DNA from: Candidatus Doudnabacteria bacterium
GTDB lineage: Bacteria > Patescibacteriota > Doudnabacteria > UBA920 > O2-02-FULL-48-8
NCBI GenBank assembly: GCA_037200925.1
Contig: JBBCGO010000001.1
Coordinates: forward strand, 824,235-888,234
Direction of reading: 5' to 3'
Length of the DNA: 64,000 bases
A program made the position numbers and the translations under genes. The notes beneath the pieces are model-generated. The model searched no databases and was not told where the DNA came from. It saw only the letters and a program-made list of their open reading frames with translations. Shown piece after piece: positions 1,114 through 51,145 of the stretch. Within the stretch, counting starts at the first letter, position 1; each line of letters opens with the position of its first letter.

Positions 1114-1670
1114 GAACAAGTTCTTAAAGGCGGCATAAAGGTCTTATTTATGCCAAAATCTAATAGAACATATTCCGACCGTTCTCAATATATAATCCAA
1201 GCTGTGACCAAACGCCGTAAAAAGCTTCGGGAGATGGCAAGGACATATAAAGGCGGTAAGTGTATGATCTGTGGTTATGATCGTTACTTGGGTGCATTGG
1301 ACTTTCATCATCTTGATCCTTCCAAGAAAAAATTTGGTATTTCCATGAATGGACTCACTAAATCTTGGGAAAAGATTAGGATTGAGTTGGATAAATGTAT
1401 TCTGATTTGCGCCAATTGCCACAGGGAATTACATGCAGGAGTATTGCAGCTTCCTGGTGAAAGCCAGGTTGAAAAACGAGGTGAATTCGGGGAAGTCCAA
1501 TCTTCTGAAAAGTTGTTGGATAATCCCGAGCCAAGCGCAGACAATTTGTCTGTGAAGGTGTAGAGACTATCCCGACAGGGAGTAGTCCTTGCAGGAATGC
1601 AAGGCCGAAGCGCCTCGGACCTTAAACGGTTATGATATAGTCCATACTAAAGGTAACTTTAGATAAAATG
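1114..1670 (+). mobile_element. Group-I-like intron carrying an HNH homing-endonuclease ORF
   Basis: The 5' exon ends in U and the intervening sequence ends in G (omega-G). A P7-like pair GACTAT (1564-1569) and ATAGTC (1636-1641) sits in a context GATATAGTCC resembling the Tetrahymena P7 3' strand GAUAUAGUCGG. P8- and P9-like hairpins lie at 1587-1604 and 1644-1660. A candidate internal guide GCGG is at 1127-1130. The ORF occupies the 5' two thirds. Confidence 0.6.
1150..1563 (+). CDS. HNH homing endonuclease (intron-encoded)
   Basis: CMICGY...HHLDP...CANCHRELH is an HNH zinc-finger nuclease motif. The ORF lies wholly inside the tRNA intervening sequence. Confidence 0.8.
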   Translation: MPKSNRTYSDRSQYIIQAVTKRRKKLREMARTYKGGKCMICGYDRYLGALDFHHLDPSKKKFGISMNGLTKSWEKIRIELDKCILICANCHRELHAGVLQLPGESQVEKRGEFGEVQSSEKLLDNPEPSADNLSVKV

Positions 1671-39471: not shown

Positions 39472-40833
39472 TTAATAAGGAGCAGCGCCCGGGGATCCGT
39501 AAAACCATTGCAGATTATCTCCCGCATGTAATGTAAAATCAGCCGCACCTAAATTGGGAACAGTTCCATTGACTGCAAATTGCCAGCCGCTGGAACCGAC
39601 CGGATCGTAGCCGTCAATACTTTGCACAAACTGGCCTAATCCAGTTTGTTTTATTACATACAAGAGGTTGATCTGACTGCAGGCGCTGATCAGCGCCTGC
39701 AGTGCAGTCGGGCTGTTTGCAGTTGTGCCGTCAAAAATCTTGTTGCCGGGATAAGCAATAGTGACATGTGTTCCTCCCGCAGCCGGAGTCTGATAAATAT
39801 TAGGTGTAGGATATGGCGTAGGGTAAGGGGTTGCATAAGGAGTAGCATAGGGCGTTGAATAGATGCCGGGAGTTTGATACGGAGTCGCGTAAGGCGTTGA
39901 ATAAACAGTTGGAGTCTCATATGGCGTAAGGTAAGGGGTTGCATAAGGAGTAGCATAGGGAGTGGCATAAGGAGTAGCATAGGGAGTCGGATACGGGCTT
40001 GGATAAGGCGTTTGATAATTTGATACGGTATTTATCGGCAGAGTATGTCCGGAAAGAGCGATCACAGCATATGCCGTGACCAATCCGGAGCCGCTGGAGT
40101 CTGAAGGATGCCATTTAAAAGTTCCGTCGGAAAGCTGAAGGCTGCTTAAAAAAGCCGTGGCAGAGGCCGGAATGGGCTGGCCTGCGGCTAAAAGGCCCCA
40201 CATAACCCAGGCTGTGGATGCTCCGTCAGCTGACTGTCCCGAAGAAAATCCGTAGCCTCCGGAAGAATCTTGGGATTGGCTGAGGTAATTCACAGCATTA
40301 TTCGGCGACCCGCCGGTGGCAGCCAGGGCTGCAATAGCCGCGGCAGTGGTATTGGAATCAGAGCCCACCCCTGTCGCATACCCCCAGCCGCCGTCGGAAT
40401 TCTGGTGAGACAGAATAAATTGGCGGGAGGAAGAAACAGTGGCATCGCTGATGCCTGCCGAAGCCAAAGCAAGCACGCCGAAAATATCGTCATTGATCAG
40501 GCTTGCGTCGCCGATCTGACCTCCGGAAGACATGCTTTCAAGCTTGGAGACAAAATTCTCAGAGCCGATAGTTGACGGATTGCCGCCGGTGGCAGTGATG
40601 GCCAAGATCCGTTTTTCGTAGTCTGTGGCTATGTTTGAATTCAGGGGAGCGGCCAGAAAACTTTGGCCCAAGTTTTGGCCGACTGAGGCATAAGCCATGA
40701 TAGCCCATTCGTCATTGGCGGGAAGTGTGGCAACGGCCTGCTGTAAATTAGCCGCGTCGGCAAGATTATTGGTAGCTAAAACAGCAACTGCAAATGCCGA
40801 AATAACCGTGAGAATTATTTTTTTGTACTTCAT
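39472..40833 (-). CDS. Secreted protein: prenyltransferase/terpene-cyclase-like alpha/alpha-toroid repeats plus TPY-rich linker plus C-terminal DUF4430 (transcobalamin-like architecture)
   Basis: Signal peptide. Repeats QNSDGGWGY...TAAAIAAL, QDSSGGYGF...TAWVMWGLLAAG, QLSDGTFKW. The (T/S)PY(A/P) linker repeats over ten times. The C-terminus ALISACSQINLLYVIKQTGLGQFVQSIDGYDPVGSSGWQFAVNG...HAGDNLQWFY is DUF4430-like. Confidence 0.55.
   Translation of the reverse strand: MKYKKIILTVISAFAVAVLATNNLADAANLQQAVATLPANDEWAIMAYASVGQNLGQSFLAAPLNSNIATDYEKRILAITATGGNPSTIGSENFVSKLESMSSGGQIGDASLINDDIFGVLALASAGISDATVSSSRQFILSHQNSDGGWGYATGVGSDSNTTAAAIAALAATGGSPNNAVNYLSQSQDSSGGYGFSSGQSADGASTAWVMWGLLAAGQPIPASATAFLSSLQLSDGTFKWHPSDSSGSGLVTAYAVIALSGHTLPINTVSNYQTPYPSPYPTPYATPYATPYATPYATPYLTPYETPTVYSTPYATPYQTPGIYSTPYATPYATPYPTPYPTPNIYQTPAAGGTHVTIAYPGNKIFDGTTANSPTALQALISACSQINLLYVIKQTGLGQFVQSIDGYDPVGSSGWQFAVNGTVPNLGAADFTLHAGDNLQWFYGSPGAAPY
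39780..40015. repeat. Imperfect 12-nt tandem DNA repeat encoding the ATPY/TPY linker
   Basis: GCATAAGGAGTAGCATAGGGAGT... periodicity on the plus strand. Confidence 0.55.
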
Positions 40834-40911
40834 AAATTTATTAATTGTGAAAGTTTTTAAAGAGAATAGAAAAGAGAGTGTAGCCCGCTGATTATCGGCG
40901 GGCTACGGGGA

Positions 40912-41238
40912 TTAAACCGGTTCCAGTATGTACCCGAGGTTCTCCGGCACCTGATATTTCCCGACATTGAGCGTGGGGGGTCCGCTTTTGACAGGATCAA
41001 GTCCCAACCCTTGGTCAATGCCGATCAGCGAAGCGCCGACGCGAATGCGCGGGATTTTCCCGTTGATGACAAGGTATACTCCGCCGTCCAGATTTTTTCG
41101 CTCTACGACAGTGTAACCGTCACGCTGCAGCATTGTAAGCAGGGGAGTGGTCGAGGTTGGTGCGGTTGTGCTCTTAAGAGAACTGCAAGCTGAAGTAAGC
41201 AGAGCCGCCAGTGAAGCGAAAAATCCACGTCGGTTCAT
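40912..41238 (-). CDS. Small putative Tat-signal lipoprotein, hypothetical
   Basis: MNRRGFFASLAALLTSAC has a twin-arginine-like motif and a lipobox Cys. Confidence 0.4.
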   Translation of the reverse strand: MNRRGFFASLAALLTSACSSLKSTTAPTSTTPLLTMLQRDGYTVVERKNLDGGVYLVINGKIPRIRVGASLIGIDQGLGLDPVKSGPPTLNVGKYQVPENLGYILEPV

Positions 41239-41268: not shown

Positions 41269-41300
41269 AAAACCTTCTTCCGAACAGAAGAAGGAGTTTT
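41269..41300. terminator. Bidirectional hairpin terminator
   Basis: AAAAACCTTCTTCcgaacaGAAGAAGGagTTTTT. Confidence 0.45.
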
Positions 41301-41895
41301 TAAAAATAAAAACCGCTTTCTCCTGCTCGGGAGTAGCTAAGATAAATTGAATTCATATTTGGTTTTCCGGCTATACGGTTGCGGCACAGCGGAGGACTTG
41401 CACCTCACTTACCCGAAATGAATTACTTACAGAGTTAAAGAACGTAAACAAATACTAAATCTAAAAAAAAAGCCTGTCAAATCGACAACATAAAAACCAG
41501 GTGAGAGAACCTGGTCTTTATGTGTGTCGAAAGCCGTGCTTGGAAAATTACGATTTTGGTAACTCCAGGTCGTGAGCTTTCAATTTTGGTATCCCCGGTC
41601 CAGAACAAATCTTCGGTGGTTAAGCCTAATGATTGGGTTCCAGGCTGGAAATAAGCGAATTCAAAAAAGCGGTCTTTGTGTTTCAGCAGGGAAGAGAGGC
41701 GATAGGATTAGGTACAAACTTAAACCATCCTTCATATGTTAGGATCGTTTGCTTGTTTATTGCCTGTGCCCTGTAGCCATGTTTTTGTTTTGTCTTTGTT
41801 TCCGCTCGAGTACTTTACTCTATGTACATTATAGCAGAAAAAGTCGGACTTGTCCAGACCCTACGTAAAAAATCTCAAAAACCGGGAAATTTTAC

Positions 41896-43884: not shown

Positions 43885-44268
43885 GGGGCTGCTCAGATTC
43901 GACAGAAGTTCTTTGATAAATATTGCAAGTCCGATTAGCCTAATTTCTCGGTTAAAAAAACAAGGCAAATCATAAATGCCAATTCTTTGGTAAGCAAGGT
44001 TAAGAATGCTTTTGCATTCTCTCCTGCTTTGGCTCTCGCTTAATACGTGAAAGCCCATCCGCCCCGCAAAGTCTGTGCGCGGGATACGGGTGTTATATTA
44101 TCCGGACTCACTTTAGCTGGCGCCTGACGGCTTTAGGACACTAAGGGCTTAACTTAAACCGCTTTCGTCCGTTTTTATGGTTTGAGCCAACAATTCAAGC
44201 GGTCCAAACTTGTAGATATATTTGTTAAAATCTTTTGGACGGGAGTGCAATTCTCCCCAGCTCCACCA
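43885..44268 (+). ncRNA. ssrA: tmRNA (SsrA)
   Basis: 5' GGGGCUGCUCAGAUUCGACAGAAG, 3' ...GGACGGGAGUGCAAUUCUCCCCAGCUCCACCA. Acceptor stem with the G3-U70 wobble, T-arm and CCA. Internal reading frame ...GCU UUU GCA UUC UCU CCU GCU UUG GCU CUC GCU UAA (tag ...AFAFSPALALA). Convergent with smpB. Confidence 0.85.
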
Positions 44269-47802: not shown

Positions 47803-50800
47803 ATGAAGCAAACTTTTAAACCAATCGATCCGAAGCCTGACTTTCCCAAACTTGAGGAAGAGGTCTTAAAGTTTTGGGAAGACAATCAGATCTTCCAAAA
47901 ATCTTTGGAGCAGACGAAAAACGGCAAGCCGTACGTTTTTTATGACGGCCCGCCGTTTGCTACAGGTACACCGCATTACGGACATATTTTAGGTTCAACT
48001 GTAAAGGACCTGTTTCCGCGCTATCAGACTATGAACGGAAGATTTGTCCGCCGCCGCTGGGGCTGGGACTGCCATGGCCTGCCGATAGAAGAGATAGTTG
48101 AGCGGAAATTGGGGATCTCAGGCAAAAAGGACATTGAGAAGCTGGGCATAAAAAAATTCAACGAAACCTGCCGCTCAATGGTTTTGGAATATGTGGGCGA
48201 GTGGCGGAAGACCATCCGCCGAATTGCGCGCTGGGTTGATTTTGATAATTCTTACAAAACCATGGATCGCGACTACATGGAGTCCGTCTGGTGGGCATTC
48301 AAACAGATCTATGACAAAGGGTTGGTTTACGAAGGCCGCCGGGTGCTTCTTTATTGTCCTCGTTGCGAAACGCCGGTTTCAAATTTTGAAGTGGCTATGG
48401 ATAACAGTTATCAGGAAGTCACAGAAGAAGCGGTAACCGTAAAATTCAAAATCCAAAAGCAGAAGAACACTTATTTATTGGCCTGGACGACCACCCCCTG
48501 GACTTTGCCGGGCAATGTGGCCTTGGCTGTGGGTGCGGATATTGATTACGTAAAAGTTAAAGCAGGCGATGAGTTCTATATTTTGGCAAAAAAAACTGAA
48601 TAAAGACGGGACAATTATTGAAGAATTCAAAGGCTCCAAACTTGTCGGCTTGGAATACGAACCGTTATTTGATGTGCCTGATGTGAGATCAGACAAGTCA
48701 TTTAAAATTTATGCGGCTGACTTTGTGAATACCGAAGACGGCACCGGGGTCGTGCACACGGCCGTGGTTTACGGTGAAGATGACTATGATCTGGGGCTGA
48801 AAGTCGGTTTGCCCGTGGTTCCTTTGCTTGATGAAAAAGGAAAGTTTAATGATAAGGCGCCGAAGTTATTGCAAGGCGTATATTTTAAAGATTCGGAAAA
48901 AATCATTAAGAAAGACCTTGAGGGCAGGGGATTGTTGTTTGCAAAAAATCAGCACAAACATTCTTATCCGCATTGCTGGCGCTGTGGTACGACGCTTTAT
49001 TACAATGCCATCCCGGCCTGGTTCATGAATATCCAAAAGATCAAGAAAGGCCTTTTGGAAACAAATGACAAAGAGATCAACTGGTTCCCCGAGCATCTGA
49101 AACACGGCCGGTACGAAAAAAGCGTGGAAGCAGCCCCTGACTGGAATATTTCCCGCAACCGATACTGGGGCAACCCGATCCCGGTCTGGAAGTGCGAAGA
49201 CGGGCACAATACCGTGGTTGGCAGTATCAAGGATCTGGGTTTGGAAAGAAATACTTTTTATTTTTCAAGACACGGCCAAGCTGACCTGAACCTTACGATG
49301 GTGGCCAGTAATTATCCGGAAATTGTTATCAGCAGCCTGACTGATGAAGGAAAAAAACAAGCCGAAGCATTAGCGAATGACCTCCGGAAGAGCGGTGGTG
49401 TTGATCTGATATTTTCATCTGATTTGAAACGGACAAAGGAGACCGCAGAAATTGTCGGAAAATTACTCGGAGTTAAAGTGGTCGAGGATGAACGACTGAG
49501 GGAATACAATGTCGGCACATATAACGGCAAACCGGACGCTGACTATGACCGCGATTTTCCTGTTGAAGTGCGGTGGGATAAAGCCGCTCCCCAAGGGGAA
49601 ACCTGGAAGCAATTGCAAGAGCGGATGGTTGATTTTACTGAAGAAATCAATAAAAAATATCAAGATAAAAAAATACTCGTTGTTTCGCACGGCGACGCGC
49701 TATGGATGCTACAGAAATATTTTGGGTCAGAGCGAGAATACCCGAAGTTTGGCCAAGTTTTTGAAGTGTCCGTCAGCGTAACGGATCTGCACCGGCCGTA
49801 TATTGATGACATCGTTTTGAAGTGCAAACAATGCGGCAAGGACTCTCATAGAACGCCGGAAATCTTTGATTCCTGGGTGGAGGCCGGTTCCATGCCATTT
49901 GCGGAATATCATTATCCAATTGATCAGAAAGAAACATTTGAGTCACGCTTTCCGGCCCAGTTCATCTCCGAGTATATTGCCCAGACCAGAGCCTGGTTTT
50001 ACGTCATGCATGTCATCTCTTACAATTTATTCGGTAAAGCGCCGTTTGAAAACGTGGCGACCACAGGCACTATTCTGGCTGAAGACGGCGACAAGATGAG
50101 CAAGTCAAAAAATAACTATCCCGACCCTTGGATCGTGATCGATAAATATGGCGTGGATGCCCTGAGATTTTATCTAATGAATTCTTCTGTCATGAACGCT
50201 GACAATTTGAACTTCAGTGAGAAGGAATTGGGGGTTGTTTACCGCAAAAATATTCTGATCCTTTGGAATATTTATAATTATTTTGTGACTTATGCCAATG
50301 AAGCTGATTGGGAGCCGAAGGGACCCGGTTACAAACCGGATTTGACAAATGTTCTGGATCTTTGGATCGTAGCCAAGACACAAGATCTGGTAAACGAAGT
50401 TACGGAGCAGCTGGATAATTACAACACTGTGCGCGCAACGAGAGCGATAGAAAATTATATCAATGAACTTTCGACTTGGTATGTGAGAAGGAGCAGAGGA
50501 CGAAAAGACAGCCATTTCTTCGGTAGCCTCCGCCATGCGCTGATGGTTCTGGCAAAAGTTTCAGCTCCCGTAACGCCTTATCTGTCTGAACTGATCTACA
50601 GCAATTTGAATAAAAATCCGGATGTGATCTCGGTGCATCTGGCCAAGTGGCCGGAAAAGAAAGAGTTGACCGCTGAACAAAAAGAAATCTTGAGCCAGAT
50701 GCAGTTTGTCAGAGAAACGGTGGAACAAGGGCACGCGCTGCGGAAAAGATCAAACATAAAACTGCGCCAGCCTCTGGCCTCGGTTACCTATACGCTTAAA

Positions 50801-51145
50801 GATCAGTTATCAAAAGAATATGAGGATATTTTGGCTGACGAACTGAATGTCAAAGCCGTAAATTTCGGCAGCAAGCTTGAGTTTGATCTGAACATATCCC
50901 CGGAACTCAAAAAAGAAGGCTTAGCGCGCGAACTGGAACGGGCTGTTCAGGATATGCGCAAAAAGTCAGGCTTGCAGGTTGGCGAACAGGCCGATTTATC
51001 GTATGATACAGATGATGATGAATTAAAAGCCGCTTTTGAACTGTTCGACACCAAAAAGACTTATATCGGGAAGATTTCTCGGGAAAAGGGCGGAGAAATC
51101 GTTGAAATAGACGGGAAAAAAGCGGCGATTGCGTTAAAAAAGTGA
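47803..51145 (+). CDS. ileS: Isoleucine--tRNA ligase (eukaryote/archaeal-like type), interrupted by a +1 frameshift in an A8 tract and carrying an inserted histidine-phosphatase (PGM-like) domain
   Basis: HYGH, CP1/editing, KMSKS and C-terminal regions are all present. ORF1 (frame 1) ends ILAKKTE*. ORF2 (frame 2) continues FWQKKLNKDGTIIEEF. The two halves are colinear with a single IleS. Confidence 0.85.
48588..48595 (+). other. A8 homopolymer that is the site of the ileS frameshift
   Basis: GGCAAAAAAAACTG. Removing one A joins ...DEFYILAKK to LNKDGTIIEEFKGSKLVGLEYEPLF in one frame. Confidence 0.7.
49262..49780 (+). other. In-frame histidine-phosphatase (phosphoglycerate-mutase superfamily) domain inserted inside IleS
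   Basis: FSRHGQADLN (RHG motif) ... VVSHGDALWML (second catalytic His). It is flanked by IleS segments ...IPVWKCEDGHNTVVGSIKDLG and VTDLHRPYIDDIVLKCKQCG...FDSWVEAGSMPFAEYHYP, which are contiguous in other IleS proteins. Confidence 0.75.

What the first reader, a model, noticed from the sequence alone, without database searches (positions are those of the whole stretch)
39472..40833. Transcobalamin-like architecture: extracellular alpha/alpha-toroid (prenyltransferase-like repeats) plus flexible TPY linker plus DUF4430
After a signal peptide there are at least three Q-x-SDGG(W/Y)G...TAwxxwAL repeats typical of the prenyltransferase/terpene-cyclase alpha/alpha-toroid. A striking linker of more than ten (T/S)PY(A/P) repeats follows, then a C-terminal DUF4430-like domain (LLYVIKQTGLGQFVQSIDGYDPVGSSGWQFAVNG...GDNLQWFY). 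From memory, DUF4430 is homologous to the C-terminal beta-domain of intrinsic factor/transcobalamin, whose N-terminal domain is an alpha6/alpha6 barrel. The protein would therefore be a bacterial surface corrinoid (B12)-capture protein built like the eukaryotic B12 carriers. The linker is also a DNA-level tandem repeat (39780-40015) and could vary in length.
Basis: partly seen in the sequence, partly recalled or inferred. Interest (0 to 1): 0.65.

Follow-up and report, generated by a model that had tools for sequence, protein, structure and literature searches.

The report
Transcobalamin-like B12-capture protein, riboswitch-linked
A secreted protein of an uncultured ultra-small bacterium (Candidatus Doudnabacteria) has the same two-domain build as the human vitamin B12 carriers and lies just downstream of a B12-sensing RNA switch, so it is most likely a B12-scavenging protein; this role was predicted for such bacterial proteins in 2007, so it is a well-supported new example and not a new kind of system.

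Summary
ORF 39472-40833 (minus strand, 453 aa) encodes a signal peptide, a 12-helix alpha/alpha toroid with three prenyltransferase/squalene-cyclase-type repeats, an 85-residue linker with 14 (T/S)PY units, and a C-terminal DUF4430 domain (Pfam E 1.2e-10).

The DUF4430 profile hits only transcobalamin, intrinsic factor and haptocorrin beta-domains in the PDB. The top 15 Foldseek hits of the AlphaFold model are those three carriers, aligned over both domains.

It is followed by a terminator, a 108-aa lipoprotein ORF and then this gene. In 62 of 77 related Patescibacteria loci a cobalamin riboswitch lies upstream of the homologue. Neighbours there include a CbrT-like membrane protein (DUF6580), the adenosyltransferase BtuR and the B12-dependent reductase NrdJ.

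Caveats:
- Corrinoid binding is not shown.
- No cell anchor was found.
- The models do not reproduce the closed sandwich.
- A hairpin separates the gene from the riboswitch-proximal ORF.
- No transporter lies in the window.

Burroughs et al. (2007) already predicted toroid+SLBB bacterial B12 scavengers. Verdict: new member of a known, experimentally untested kind.

The parts
41452..41480 (-). Promoter-like site (TTGACA, 17 nt, TAGTAT) about 20 nt upstream of the riboswitch aptamer
   Evidence: Consensus scan, 10 of 12 matches. This is a pattern match only.
41352..41429 (-). AdoCbl-II (cobalamin/B12) riboswitch aptamer
   Evidence: Rfam RF01689, 43.7 bits against a gathering score of 36.5, full-length model match 1-81. 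The core aligns with riboswitches upstream of homologues in other loci.
41273..41294 (-). Intrinsic-terminator hairpin (CCTTCTTCTGTTCGGAAGAAGG followed by TTTTTTG); likely expression platform of the riboswitch
   Evidence: Terminator scan: 9-bp stem and a T-run. It lies between the aptamer and the Shine-Dalgarno sequence GAAGGAGG of the next ORF.
40912..41238 (-). First gene after the riboswitch: a 108-aa predicted lipoprotein (MNRRGFFASLAALLTSAC..., Thr/Pro-rich tether, about 70-aa domain). Possibly a degenerate SLBB/DUF4430-like domain.
   Evidence: ORF and strong Shine-Dalgarno sequence. 100% identical to NCBI hypothetical protein WDN47_04955. Invariant RR and Cys in positional equivalents. 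No Pfam or NCBIfam hit. hhalign to DUF4430 is weak (probability 14-62%). Positional equivalents in L012, L060 and L066 are bona fide DUF4430 proteins.
40880..40906 (-). GC-rich hairpin (GTAGCCCGC...GCGGGCTAC, -18.9 kcal/mol) directly after the small ORF's stop, followed by a T-rich but interrupted tract. Possible partial terminator or mRNA-stabilising element between the two genes.
   Evidence: RNAfold; the same arrangement occurs in 9 related loci. Not called as a terminator by the scan.
39472..40833 (-). The finding: a 453-aa secreted alpha/alpha-toroid + TPY linker + DUF4430 protein (transcobalamin-like architecture)
40753..40833 (-). Signal peptide (aa 1-27)
   Evidence: Sequence features; helix 4-22 in the model.
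40033..40752 (-). 12-helix alpha/alpha toroid (aa 28-267) with prenyltransferase/squalene-cyclase-type repeats. Invariant polar residues W43, Q106, N114, D115, D116, D159, N161, T163, D203, S206 and W209 lie at helix N-termini.
   Evidence: Pfam PF00432. Profile against the PDB: squalene-hopene-cyclase-like proteins at E 1e-22. pLDDT above 90 and 12 helices. Conservation.
39778..40032 (-). Disordered linker (aa 268-352) with 14 (T/S)PY units; a 12-nt-period DNA repeat
   Evidence: pLDDT 39-51. Hypervariable among homologues.
39475..39777 (-). C-terminal DUF4430 / SLBB beta-grasp domain (aa 353-453), homologous to the beta-domain of transcobalamin, intrinsic factor and haptocorrin
   Evidence: Pfam E 1.2e-10. 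Profile hits to 5no0, 3kq4 and 4kki. pLDDT 86-94, strand/helix order E-E-H-E-E-E-E.

Best explanation
The gene encodes a Sec-exported corrinoid (vitamin B12 family) binding protein of a Candidatus Doudnabacteria (Patescibacteria/CPR) bacterium. It belongs to the bacterial 'alpha/alpha-toroid + SLBB' family that shares its architecture with animal transcobalamin, intrinsic factor and haptocorrin.

Proposed working:
1. When intracellular cobalamin is low, the AdoCbl-II riboswitch at 41352-41429 lets transcription pass its terminator. The small lipoprotein gene is then expressed and, by read-through of a weak hairpin, so is this gene (inferred).
2. The protein is exported and its signal peptide removed (inferred from sequence).
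3. The DUF4430 beta-grasp domain and the rim of the toroid each contact the corrinoid and close around it. This is how the separately expressed alpha and beta domains of transcobalamin assemble only when cobalamin is present. The 85-residue Pro/Thr/Tyr linker acts as a flexible tether whose length is not critical (inferred by homology).
4. The bound corrinoid is passed to a membrane importer. In related Patescibacteria that importer is encoded next to the homologue as a CbrT-like S-component (DUF6580). The corrinoid is then adenosylated (BtuR) and used by the B12-dependent ribonucleotide reductase NrdJ. In this genome those genes are not within the 64-kb window.

Shown: domain identities, fold similarity, the riboswitch, and the family-wide riboswitch and gene context.
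Inferred: ligand binding, the sandwich mechanism, hand-off, and co-transcription.
For: - Domain identity: Pfam DUF4430 at E 1.2e-10 and Prenyltrans above its cut-off.
- The DUF4430 profile hits only the beta-domains of transcobalamin, intrinsic factor and haptocorrin, plus 3u7z, in the PDB.
- Fold: Foldseek top-15 are those three carriers over both domains, for the window protein and for the short-linker homologue P0012.
- Rfam AdoCbl-II riboswitch at 43.7 bits with a terminator, on the same strand upstream.
- A riboswitch-core hit lies on the same strand, less than 2 kb upstream of the homologue, in 59 of 77 loci. There were no hits elsewhere in 1.04 Mb. Three more loci were found by Rfam only.
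- Rfam gathering-score hits of three cobalamin-riboswitch families occur in 18 of 37 loci scanned.
- Conserved neighbours of homologues: stand-alone DUF4430 proteins in 34 loci; DUF6580 in 26, BtuR in 13 and class II B12-dependent NrdJ in 10.
- The DUF6580 profile hits a single PDB chain: the 182-aa membrane protein of 6FNP, the B12-specific ECF-CbrT transporter, at E 1.9e-5.
- No catalytic motifs: no DxDD, and no Cys in the toroid.
- Published precedent: separately expressed transcobalamin alpha and beta domains assemble only with cobalamin, and the beta domain alone binds cobalamin and cobinamide (PMC5599065).
- The family was predicted to scavenge B12 (PMC1796856).
Against: - No binding data exist for any member of this bacterial family that I could find.
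- The toroid is not detectably a member of the eukaryotic Cobalamin_bind family (no hit at E<=1). Its closest sequence relatives are terpene cyclases.
- The AlphaFold models do not place the two domains as in holo-transcobalamin (rmsd 22-24 A, TM 0.3-0.44).
- In the window the riboswitch directly precedes the small lipoprotein gene, not this gene. A conserved GC-rich hairpin lies between the two, so riboswitch control of this gene is plausible but unproven.
- The window holds no B12 transporter, BtuR or NrdJ.
- The only experimental study of transcobalamin-like bacterial proteins links them to haem uptake (the split alpha and beta proteins of L. sakei; bioRxiv 10.1101/864751).
Confidence: 0.72

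Rival explanations
1. The protein has the same architecture but a different ligand. It captures haem or another tetrapyrrole or soluble ligand, not a corrinoid.
For: The split transcobalamin-like alpha and beta proteins of L. sakei (Lsa1840 and Lsa1839) sit in an ECF operon that was experimentally linked to haem uptake. Reviewers of Burroughs et al. warned that SLBB ligands may be diverse.
Against: The regulatory RNA is a cobalamin riboswitch, both here and in 62 of 77 related loci. The neighbours are cobalamin-specific: BtuR, NrdJ and a CbrT-like protein. No haem-related gene was seen in the contexts.
Confidence: 0.08
2. The riboswitch controls only the small lipoprotein. The toroid-DUF4430 gene is an independently expressed envelope or adhesion protein whose adjacency is only synteny.
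For: A GC-rich hairpin with a T-rich tail follows the small ORF in the window and in 9 relatives. The target gene has no Shine-Dalgarno sequence and an A/T-rich upstream region that could hold its own promoter.
Against: In the larger (about 600 aa) branch of the family the riboswitch lies 60-230 nt directly upstream of the toroid-DUF4430 gene itself. No promoter-like site was found in the 78-nt spacer. The hairpin did not meet the terminator criteria. The DUF4430 domain is homologous to known B12-binding domains whatever the regulation.
Confidence: 0.1
3. It is a secreted enzyme of the prenyltransferase or terpene-cyclase superfamily, with DUF4430 as an accessory domain.
For: The best sequence matches of the toroid are squalene-hopene-cyclase-like proteins and drimenyl diphosphate synthase (E 1e-12 to 1e-22). 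Toroid-only structural matches are prenyltransferase beta subunits (TM up to 0.63).
Against: There is no DxDD motif. There is no Cys in the toroid, so no Asp/Cys/His zinc site. It is a single 240-residue toroid without a second cyclase domain or an alpha-subunit partner. It is exported, away from isoprenoid diphosphate substrates. NCBIfam cyclase models score 14-22 bits against cut-offs of 320-850.
Confidence: 0.03
4. It binds corrinoids but serves sequestration or competition (withholding B12 from neighbours or the host cell, or storage), not delivery to an importer.
For: No anchor and no transporter are encoded nearby in this genome. Bacteroides surface binders such as BtuJ1 are described as extracellular reservoirs (abstract).
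Against: Riboswitch repression at high B12 fits an uptake function. Homologues sit next to a CbrT-like importer component.
Confidence: 0.07

Closest known systems
Animal cobalamin carriers: transcobalamin, intrinsic factor, haptocorrin (PDB 2BB5, 2PMV, 4KKI)
   Same: Secreted. N-terminal 12-helix alpha/alpha barrel followed by a C-terminal DUF4430/SLBB beta-grasp domain. The beta-domain is homologous at the sequence-profile level. They are the best Foldseek matches over both domains.
   Different: The toroid is of the prenyltransferase/squalene-cyclase repeat type, with no Cobalamin_bind (PF01122) match. The linker is 85 residues of TPY repeats instead of a short loop. The closed arrangement is not predicted. 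There are no receptor partners. The gene is prokaryotic and riboswitch-associated.
Bacterial 'alpha/alpha toroid + SLBB (transcobalamin-like clade)' proteins predicted by Burroughs, Balaji, Iyer and Aravind 2007 (PMC1796856)
   Same: Exactly this architecture, with signal peptides, extra stand-alone SLBB paralogues in the same operons, and predicted extracellular scavenging of B12 or its precursors.
   Different: That work described Firmicutes and archaeal examples in CbiO/CbiQ operons. Here the host is a CPR bacterium and the link is a cobalamin riboswitch. Relatives have a DUF6580 (CbrT-like), BtuR and NrdJ context. The window member has a repeat linker and an upstream lipoprotein.
L. sakei Lsa1840 and Lsa1839 (split transcobalamin-like alpha and beta proteins in an ECF operon; bioRxiv 10.1101/864751)
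   Same: Exported toroid and DUF4430-like modules associated with an ECF-type importer.
   Different: There the two domains are separate polypeptides and the experimental phenotype is haem uptake. Here they are fused and the context is cobalamin-specific.
Bacteroides surface B12 binders BtuG, BtuH (DUF4465) and BtuJ
   Same: Works alike: extracellular high-affinity corrinoid capture that feeds a membrane transporter, often riboswitch-controlled (abstracts).
   Different: Unrelated folds (beta-propeller, DUF4465). Those are lipoproteins of a diderm outer membrane that feed TonB-dependent BtuB.
ECF-CbrT of Lactobacillus delbrueckii (PDB 6FNP) in the nrdJ-cbrS-cbrT-pduO cluster
   Same: Relatives of the window gene sit beside a DUF6580 protein whose profile matches the 182-aa membrane-protein chain of 6FNP (inferred from its size to be CbrT) (E 1.9e-5). 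They also sit beside an adenosyltransferase and NrdJ, which is the same salvage logic.
   Different: This is a neighbour of homologues, not of the window gene. No ECF module was seen in the loci. The window itself has no such gene.

Membership tests
Pfam DUF4430 (PF14478) / transcobalamin-like clade of the SLBB beta-grasp superfamily | HMM match above the curated gathering score | tested here: met
   42.1 bits against 23.8, E 1.2e-10, aa 379-446.
Pfam DUF4430 (PF14478) / transcobalamin-like clade of the SLBB beta-grasp superfamily | Beta-grasp core with an extra beta-hairpin after the helix (Burroughs 2007) | tested here: met
   Predicted order is E355-361, E364-371, H377-387, E392-397, E400-406, E415-421, E440-446 at pLDDT 86-94. 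This rests on secondary-structure order only, because the coordinates could not be inspected.
Pfam DUF4430 (PF14478) / transcobalamin-like clade of the SLBB beta-grasp superfamily | Sequence homology to the beta-domains of transcobalamin, intrinsic factor and haptocorrin | tested here: met
   Profile A4 against PDB sequences: 5no0 at 4.4e-7, 3kq4 at 2.8e-5, 4kki at 4.7e-5. The conserved GW-x-(Y/F)-x-V-N-G...G-A-x-x-Y...G-D motif aligns with the transcobalamin sequence FWQLLRDPNTPLLQGIADYRPKDGE.
Pfam DUF4430 (PF14478) / transcobalamin-like clade of the SLBB beta-grasp superfamily | Binds a corrinoid | not testable with these tools
   Needs biochemistry. Only contextual support is available (riboswitch, neighbours).
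Eukaryotic cobalamin-binding proteins (transcobalamin, intrinsic factor, haptocorrin; Pfam Cobalamin_bind PF01122) | N-terminal alpha6/alpha6 barrel followed by a C-terminal beta-domain in one secreted chain | tested here: met
   12 helices, then the beta-domain. Foldseek alignments to these carriers span 430-500 columns.
Eukaryotic cobalamin-binding proteins (transcobalamin, intrinsic factor, haptocorrin; Pfam Cobalamin_bind PF01122) | Sequence membership of the alpha-domain in PF01122 | tested here: not met
   No PF01122 hit at E<=1. The toroid matches Prenyltrans and SQHop_cyclase instead.
Eukaryotic cobalamin-binding proteins (transcobalamin, intrinsic factor, haptocorrin; Pfam Cobalamin_bind PF01122) | The two domains clamp one cobalamin (closed sandwich) via a short flexible linker | tested here: inconclusive
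   The linker is 85 aa here and about 13 aa in homologue P0012. The ligand-free AlphaFold models do not superpose globally on the holo carriers (rmsd 22-24 A). Transcobalamin domains themselves assemble only with ligand.
Protein prenyltransferase beta subunit (PF00432) | Zn2+ site (Asp/Cys/His) and a partner alpha subunit | tested here: not met
   The only Cys is C385, in the DUF4430 domain. There is no conserved His or Cys in the toroid. The protein is exported. The Pfam score is barely above the cut-off (29.6 against 26.5) and covers only part of the model.
Class II terpene cyclases (squalene-hopene cyclase type) | DxDD general-acid motif and a two-toroid (beta-gamma) body | tested here: not met
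   No D-x-D-[DE] anywhere in the protein. There is a single toroid of about 240 aa. NCBIfam cyclase models score far below their cut-offs.
Cobalamin-riboswitch regulon (Rfam clan CL00101) | Aptamer above the gathering score, on the coding strand upstream, with an expression platform | tested here: met
   RF01689 at 43.7 against 36.5 bits, 41352-41429 minus strand. Terminator at 41294-41273.
Cobalamin-riboswitch regulon (Rfam clan CL00101) | The gene in question is part of the riboswitch-controlled transcript | tested here: inconclusive
   It is the second gene, 78 nt after the small ORF, with a hairpin in between and no promoter-like site in the spacer. In the long branch of the family the homologue is the first gene after the riboswitch.

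The most novel reading that the evidence does not exclude
The window gene is one visible part of a B12-acquisition route used across the Patescibacteria that has not, to my knowledge, been described. The route would consist of riboswitch-controlled, secreted transcobalamin-like binders (toroid + SLBB), small membrane- or lipid-tethered SLBB proteins (of which the 108-aa lipoprotein here would be a degenerate member), and a CbrT-like DUF6580 permease. These would feed BtuR and NrdJ. This would be how ultra-small, biosynthetically minimal episymbionts obtain B12 from their surroundings or hosts. It would also be the closest living prokaryotic model for the origin of the animal B12 carriers. The hypervariable repeat linker would act as an adjustable 'fishing line'.
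Probability: 0.4. Interest if true: 0.6.

Novelty: new member of a known kind. Interest (0 to 1): 0.45.

Why it matters
**Biology of CPR bacteria.** Candidate Phyla Radiation bacteria lack most cofactor biosynthesis, and how they obtain B12 is poorly documented. My searches for the riboswitch, Patescibacteria, DUF4430 and DUF6580 combinations found no paper on it.

**Size and state of the family.** The family is large: 1,736 cluster representatives at E<=1e-30. I found no experimental characterisation. It is almost always cobalamin-riboswitch-associated in this phylum. That turns a 2007 computational prediction into a sharply testable one. A recombinant mature protein should bind corrinoids, and the DUF6580 neighbour should be a CbrT-type B12 S-component.

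**Evolutionary question.** It also gives a tractable bacterial model for whether animal transcobalamin and intrinsic factor derive from bacterial toroid+SLBB scavengers.

**Limits.** The finding does not reveal a new principle. The architecture, the homology and the proposed role were already in the literature and in domain databases.

Tried and rejected
- Model coordinates are not exposed. I could not map the conserved residues onto the cavity or measure the domain interface.
- I tried to map transcobalamin's cobalamin-contact residues from Wuerges et al. 2006, but the paper is not held. PMC4350170 gave only the statement that TCN proteins carry a C-terminal DUF4430.
- I tested whether the 108-aa upstream lipoprotein is an SLBB/DUF4430 domain. 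There are no Pfam or NCBIfam hits. hhalign probabilities are 4-62% depending on the alignment. Only 7 database relatives exist.
- I searched the window for homologues of the conserved neighbours (P173, DUF6580, BtuR, NrdJ) and for a second DUF4430. None was found at E<=1.
- I looked for a C-terminal membrane anchor in the protein and in 82 homologues. None was found.
- I considered a catalytic role for the toroid and rejected it, because the motifs are absent.
- I considered BtuH as a relative and rejected it. BtuH is DUF4465, not DUF4430.
- Literature searches for DUF6580, Patescibacteria + cobalamin + riboswitch, CPR + B12 + riboswitch, and cobalamin riboswitch + prenyltransferase gave nothing relevant.
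- The minimum-free-energy fold of the leader does not reproduce the aptamer fold and adds nothing beyond the terminator.
Full report
**1. What is in the sequence**

The reported coordinates are an ORF on the minus strand, 39472..40833, 453 aa. The window comes from a Candidatus Doudnabacteria MAG: NCBI GCA_037975565.1, contig JBBCBH010000057.1, 964 kb.

From the N-terminus the protein has four parts.
- A Sec-type signal peptide (MKYKKIILTVISAFAVAVLATNNLADA|AN).
- A region with three Q-x-SDGG(W/Y/F)...TA...L repeats starting at aa 144, 186 and 233.
- A stretch of 14 (T/S)PY units between aa 275 and 342.
- A C-terminal domain.

Pfam gives DUF4430 at E 1.2e-10 (42.1 bits; cut-off 23.8) and Prenyltrans just above its cut-off (29.6 against 26.5). 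The squalene-hopene-cyclase N and C models score below theirs.

The linker is also a DNA repeat. It has 12-nt periodicity over 39802-40018, with a 108-nt higher-order duplication. The copies are 65-84% identical.

**2. Structure**

An AlphaFold2 model built on 67 homologues has mean pLDDT 85. The model shows:
- residues 30-265 as 12 helices at pLDDT above 90;
- residues 268-352 as disordered (pLDDT 39-51);
- residues 355-446 as a strand-strand-helix-strand-strand-strand-strand domain at pLDDT about 90.

Foldseek against the PDB returns intrinsic factor, transcobalamin and haptocorrin as the 15 best hits (E 9e-9 to 5e-7). The alignments span both domains. Prenyltransferase beta subunits, drimenyl diphosphate synthase and squalene-hopene cyclase follow, on the toroid alone.

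P0012 is a natural homologue with only a 13-residue linker (381 aa, 53% identical). Its model has pLDDT 93.5. It gives the same top 15 at E 1e-11 to 8e-10, four orders of magnitude ahead of the best prenyltransferase.

The global rmsd to the holo carriers is 22-24 A in both cases. The folds and their order are shared, but the closed clamp is not predicted in the absence of ligand.

**3. Sequence-level homology**

A profile of the C-terminal domain finds transcobalamin (E 4e-7), intrinsic factor (3e-5) and haptocorrin (5e-5) beta-domains in the PDB. The only other hit is the DUF4430 structural-genomics entry 3u7z. The family motif GW-x-Y-x-VNG...GA-x-x-Y...GD aligns with the transcobalamin sequence FWQLLRDPNTPLLQGIADYRPKDGE.

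The toroid, by contrast, is closest in sequence to squalene-hopene-cyclase-like proteins (E 1e-22 with the profile). It has no match to the eukaryotic Cobalamin_bind family. It is not an enzyme of those families. There is no DxDD motif, no Cys in the toroid and no second cyclase domain.

Residues invariant in 67 homologues sit at the N-termini of alternate helices of the barrel. They are W43, Q106, N114, D115, D116, D159, N161, T163, D203, S206 and W209. I interpret this as a conserved binding rim.

**4.

Rfam finds an AdoCbl-II cobalamin riboswitch aptamer at 41352-41429 on the minus strand (43.7 bits; gathering score 36.5; full-length match). The elements run in this order on that strand:
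- a promoter-like site, TTGACA-17-TAGTAT, at 41480-41452;
- the riboswitch aptamer;
- an intrinsic terminator at 41294-41273;
- a strong Shine-Dalgarno sequence;
- a 108-aa ORF (41238-40912) encoding a predicted lipoprotein;
- the toroid-DUF4430 gene, 78 nt later.

**5. Is the riboswitch link general?**

A scan of one genome per species found 285 relatives. The best 80 loci are all Patescibacteria MAGs. Two further syntenic loci came from contig look-ups.

A sequence profile of the riboswitch core was built from six Rfam-confirmed instances. It hits the same strand within 2 kb upstream of the homologue in 59 of the 77 loci that have at least 300 nt of upstream sequence. It hits nowhere else in 1.04 Mb. 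Rfam at gathering score adds three more loci (L062, L037, L017), which makes 62 of 77. In total Rfam confirms 18 of the 37 loci it scanned, as AdoCbl, AdoCbl-II or Cobalamin family members.

The family has two branches.
- In the larger branch (proteins of about 600 aa) the riboswitch lies 60-230 nt directly in front of the toroid-DUF4430 gene.
- In the Doudnabacteria-type branch, which includes the window, it lies 470-730 nt upstream with a small lipoprotein ORF in between.

**6. Gene context of the family**

Downstream of the long-branch genes the recurring same-strand neighbours are:
- a protein of about 173 aa with a signal peptide and a C-terminal membrane helix. The cluster of 61 loci that holds it also includes stand-alone DUF4430 proteins, merged with it by single-linkage clustering;
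- a stand-alone DUF4430 protein (34 loci);
- a DUF6580 membrane protein (26 loci);
- BtuR/CobO adenosyltransferase (13 loci);
- class II B12-dependent ribonucleotide reductase NrdJ (10 loci).

A profile of the DUF6580 proteins matches a single PDB sequence, the 182-aa membrane protein of 6FNP (E 1.9e-5). [quoted passage not shown] By size that chain must be the S-component CbrT, which is my inference. CbrT is encoded in an nrdJ-cbrS-cbrT-pduO cluster (PMC5997447).

The family therefore sits in a complete capture, import, adenosylation and use context. None of these partner genes lies in the 64-kb window.

**7. Mechanism and its limits**

The most likely function is extracellular corrinoid capture. 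The model has three steps: export, binding by the beta-grasp domain and the toroid rim, and hand-off to a membrane importer.

The long linker is no obstacle to a clamp. Transcobalamin's alpha and beta domains, when expressed separately, assemble only when cobalamin is added, and the beta domain alone binds cobalamin and cobinamide (PMC5599065).

The linker is hypervariable among close homologues, which fits a passive tether:
- 13 aa in P0012;
- TPY repeats of about 48-85 aa in P0002, P0001 and the window protein;
- Pro-rich linkers of other composition in P0003 and P0022;
- an inserted Ig-like segment in P0019.

Weak points are as follows.
- No binding data exist.
- No anchor of any kind was found, so 'surface' may in fact be 'secreted'.
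- A GC-rich hairpin follows the small ORF. It is 40906-40880, -18.9 kcal/mol, with a T-rich tail, and is conserved in position in 9 relatives. It could terminate part of the riboswitch-controlled transcript, so cobalamin control of this particular gene is plausible but unproven.
- The one experimental study of transcobalamin-like bacterial proteins concerns haem.

**8. The small lipoprotein**

Its positional equivalents share an RR motif, a lipobox Cys, a Thr/Pro-rich tether and a domain of about 70 aa. In L012, L060 and L066 the protein in that position is a bona fide DUF4430 protein. For the window-type sequences, profile-profile comparison with DUF4430 keeps the right register but is not significant (probability 4-62%).

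I rate it about 60% likely to be a degenerate, lipid-tethered SLBB domain. That would fit the 'second SLBB protein in the operon' pattern noted in 2007.

**9. Comparison with what is known, and novelty**

Burroughs, Balaji, Iyer and Aravind (2007) defined the SLBB superfamily and its transcobalamin-like clade. They described bacterial fusions of an alpha/alpha toroid with SLBB, with signal peptides and paralogous SLBB proteins in the same operons. They predicted B12 scavenging, and they proposed that animals acquired transcobalamin-like proteins from bacteria.

NCBI already labels relatives as 'DUF4430 domain-containing protein' or 'prenyltransferase/squalene oxidase repeat-containing protein'. 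The family is large.

What I did not find in the searchable literature:
- the near-universal cobalamin-riboswitch association in Patescibacteria;
- the CbrT-like identity of the DUF6580 neighbour;
- the window-type variant, with a repeat linker and an upstream lipoprotein.

I therefore file the finding as a new member of a known but experimentally untested kind. Interest is 0.45: solid and testable, but not surprising to a B12 specialist.

Noticed in passing
window 41478-41860 (minus strand): An ORF-free unit of about 330 nt with a strong promoter-like site (TGGACA-17-TG-TATAAT) and a terminator hairpin. It is conserved in 9 Doudnabacteria loci, with a core of about 60 nt that is more than 90% identical, and shows compensatory-looking changes in one hairpin. 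It has no Rfam match at E<=1. In all relatives it lies on the strand opposite to the riboswitch operon, but in the window it lies on the same strand, which implies a local inversion. It is a candidate unknown ncRNA.
   Followed up: partly
window 40912-41238 (minus strand): The first gene after the riboswitch is a 108-aa lipoprotein with no family assignment. It may be a degenerate SLBB/DUF4430 domain.
   Followed up: partly
L037, L039, L051, L063, L065 and 20+ other loci (e.g. L037:7347-11900): A conserved Patescibacteria gene cluster. The order in L037, L039 and L051 is NrdJ, cobalamin riboswitch, toroid-DUF4430 (about 600 aa), a membrane-anchored protein of about 173 aa with no family, BtuR, a small DUF4430 protein, then DUF6580. 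The placement of NrdJ and BtuR varies between loci. The DUF6580 profile matches only the 182-aa membrane-protein chain of PDB 6FNP (the ECF-CbrT B12 transporter; inferred by size to be CbrT). This suggests that DUF6580 is a corrinoid S-component.
   Followed up: partly
window 1432-1663 (+), flank 1677-1710: A group I intron (Rfam 57.9 bits). Its 3' flank, GGGTCGCTGGTTCGAATCCAGCCGCCCGAGCCA, looks like the T-arm and acceptor end of a tRNA. It is probably an intron-interrupted tRNA gene that ARAGORN did not call.
   Followed up: partly
window 47803-48603 and 48569-51145 (+): Isoleucyl-tRNA synthetase appears as two overlapping ORFs of 266 and 858 aa. The syntenic locus L002 has one 1126-aa gene with an inserted histidine-phosphatase domain. 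This suggests a frameshift, either real or an assembly error, near 48570-48600.
   Followed up: no
window 40880-40906 and the equivalent positions in L001, L002, L004, L006-L009, L011: A GC-rich hairpin directly after the stop codon of the small lipoprotein gene is conserved in position, though not in sequence, across relatives. It often has a T-rich tail. It may be an internal attenuator that sets the ratio of the two gene products.
   Followed up: partly
window 43885-44268 (+): A tmRNA gene (tag peptide ANSLVSKVKNAFAFSPALALA) next to smpB. The block ArgRS - SmpB - tmRNA - IF3 - L35 - L20 - peptidase M24 - B12 module - DinB - MsrB is syntenic in several Doudnabacteria genomes.
   Followed up: no
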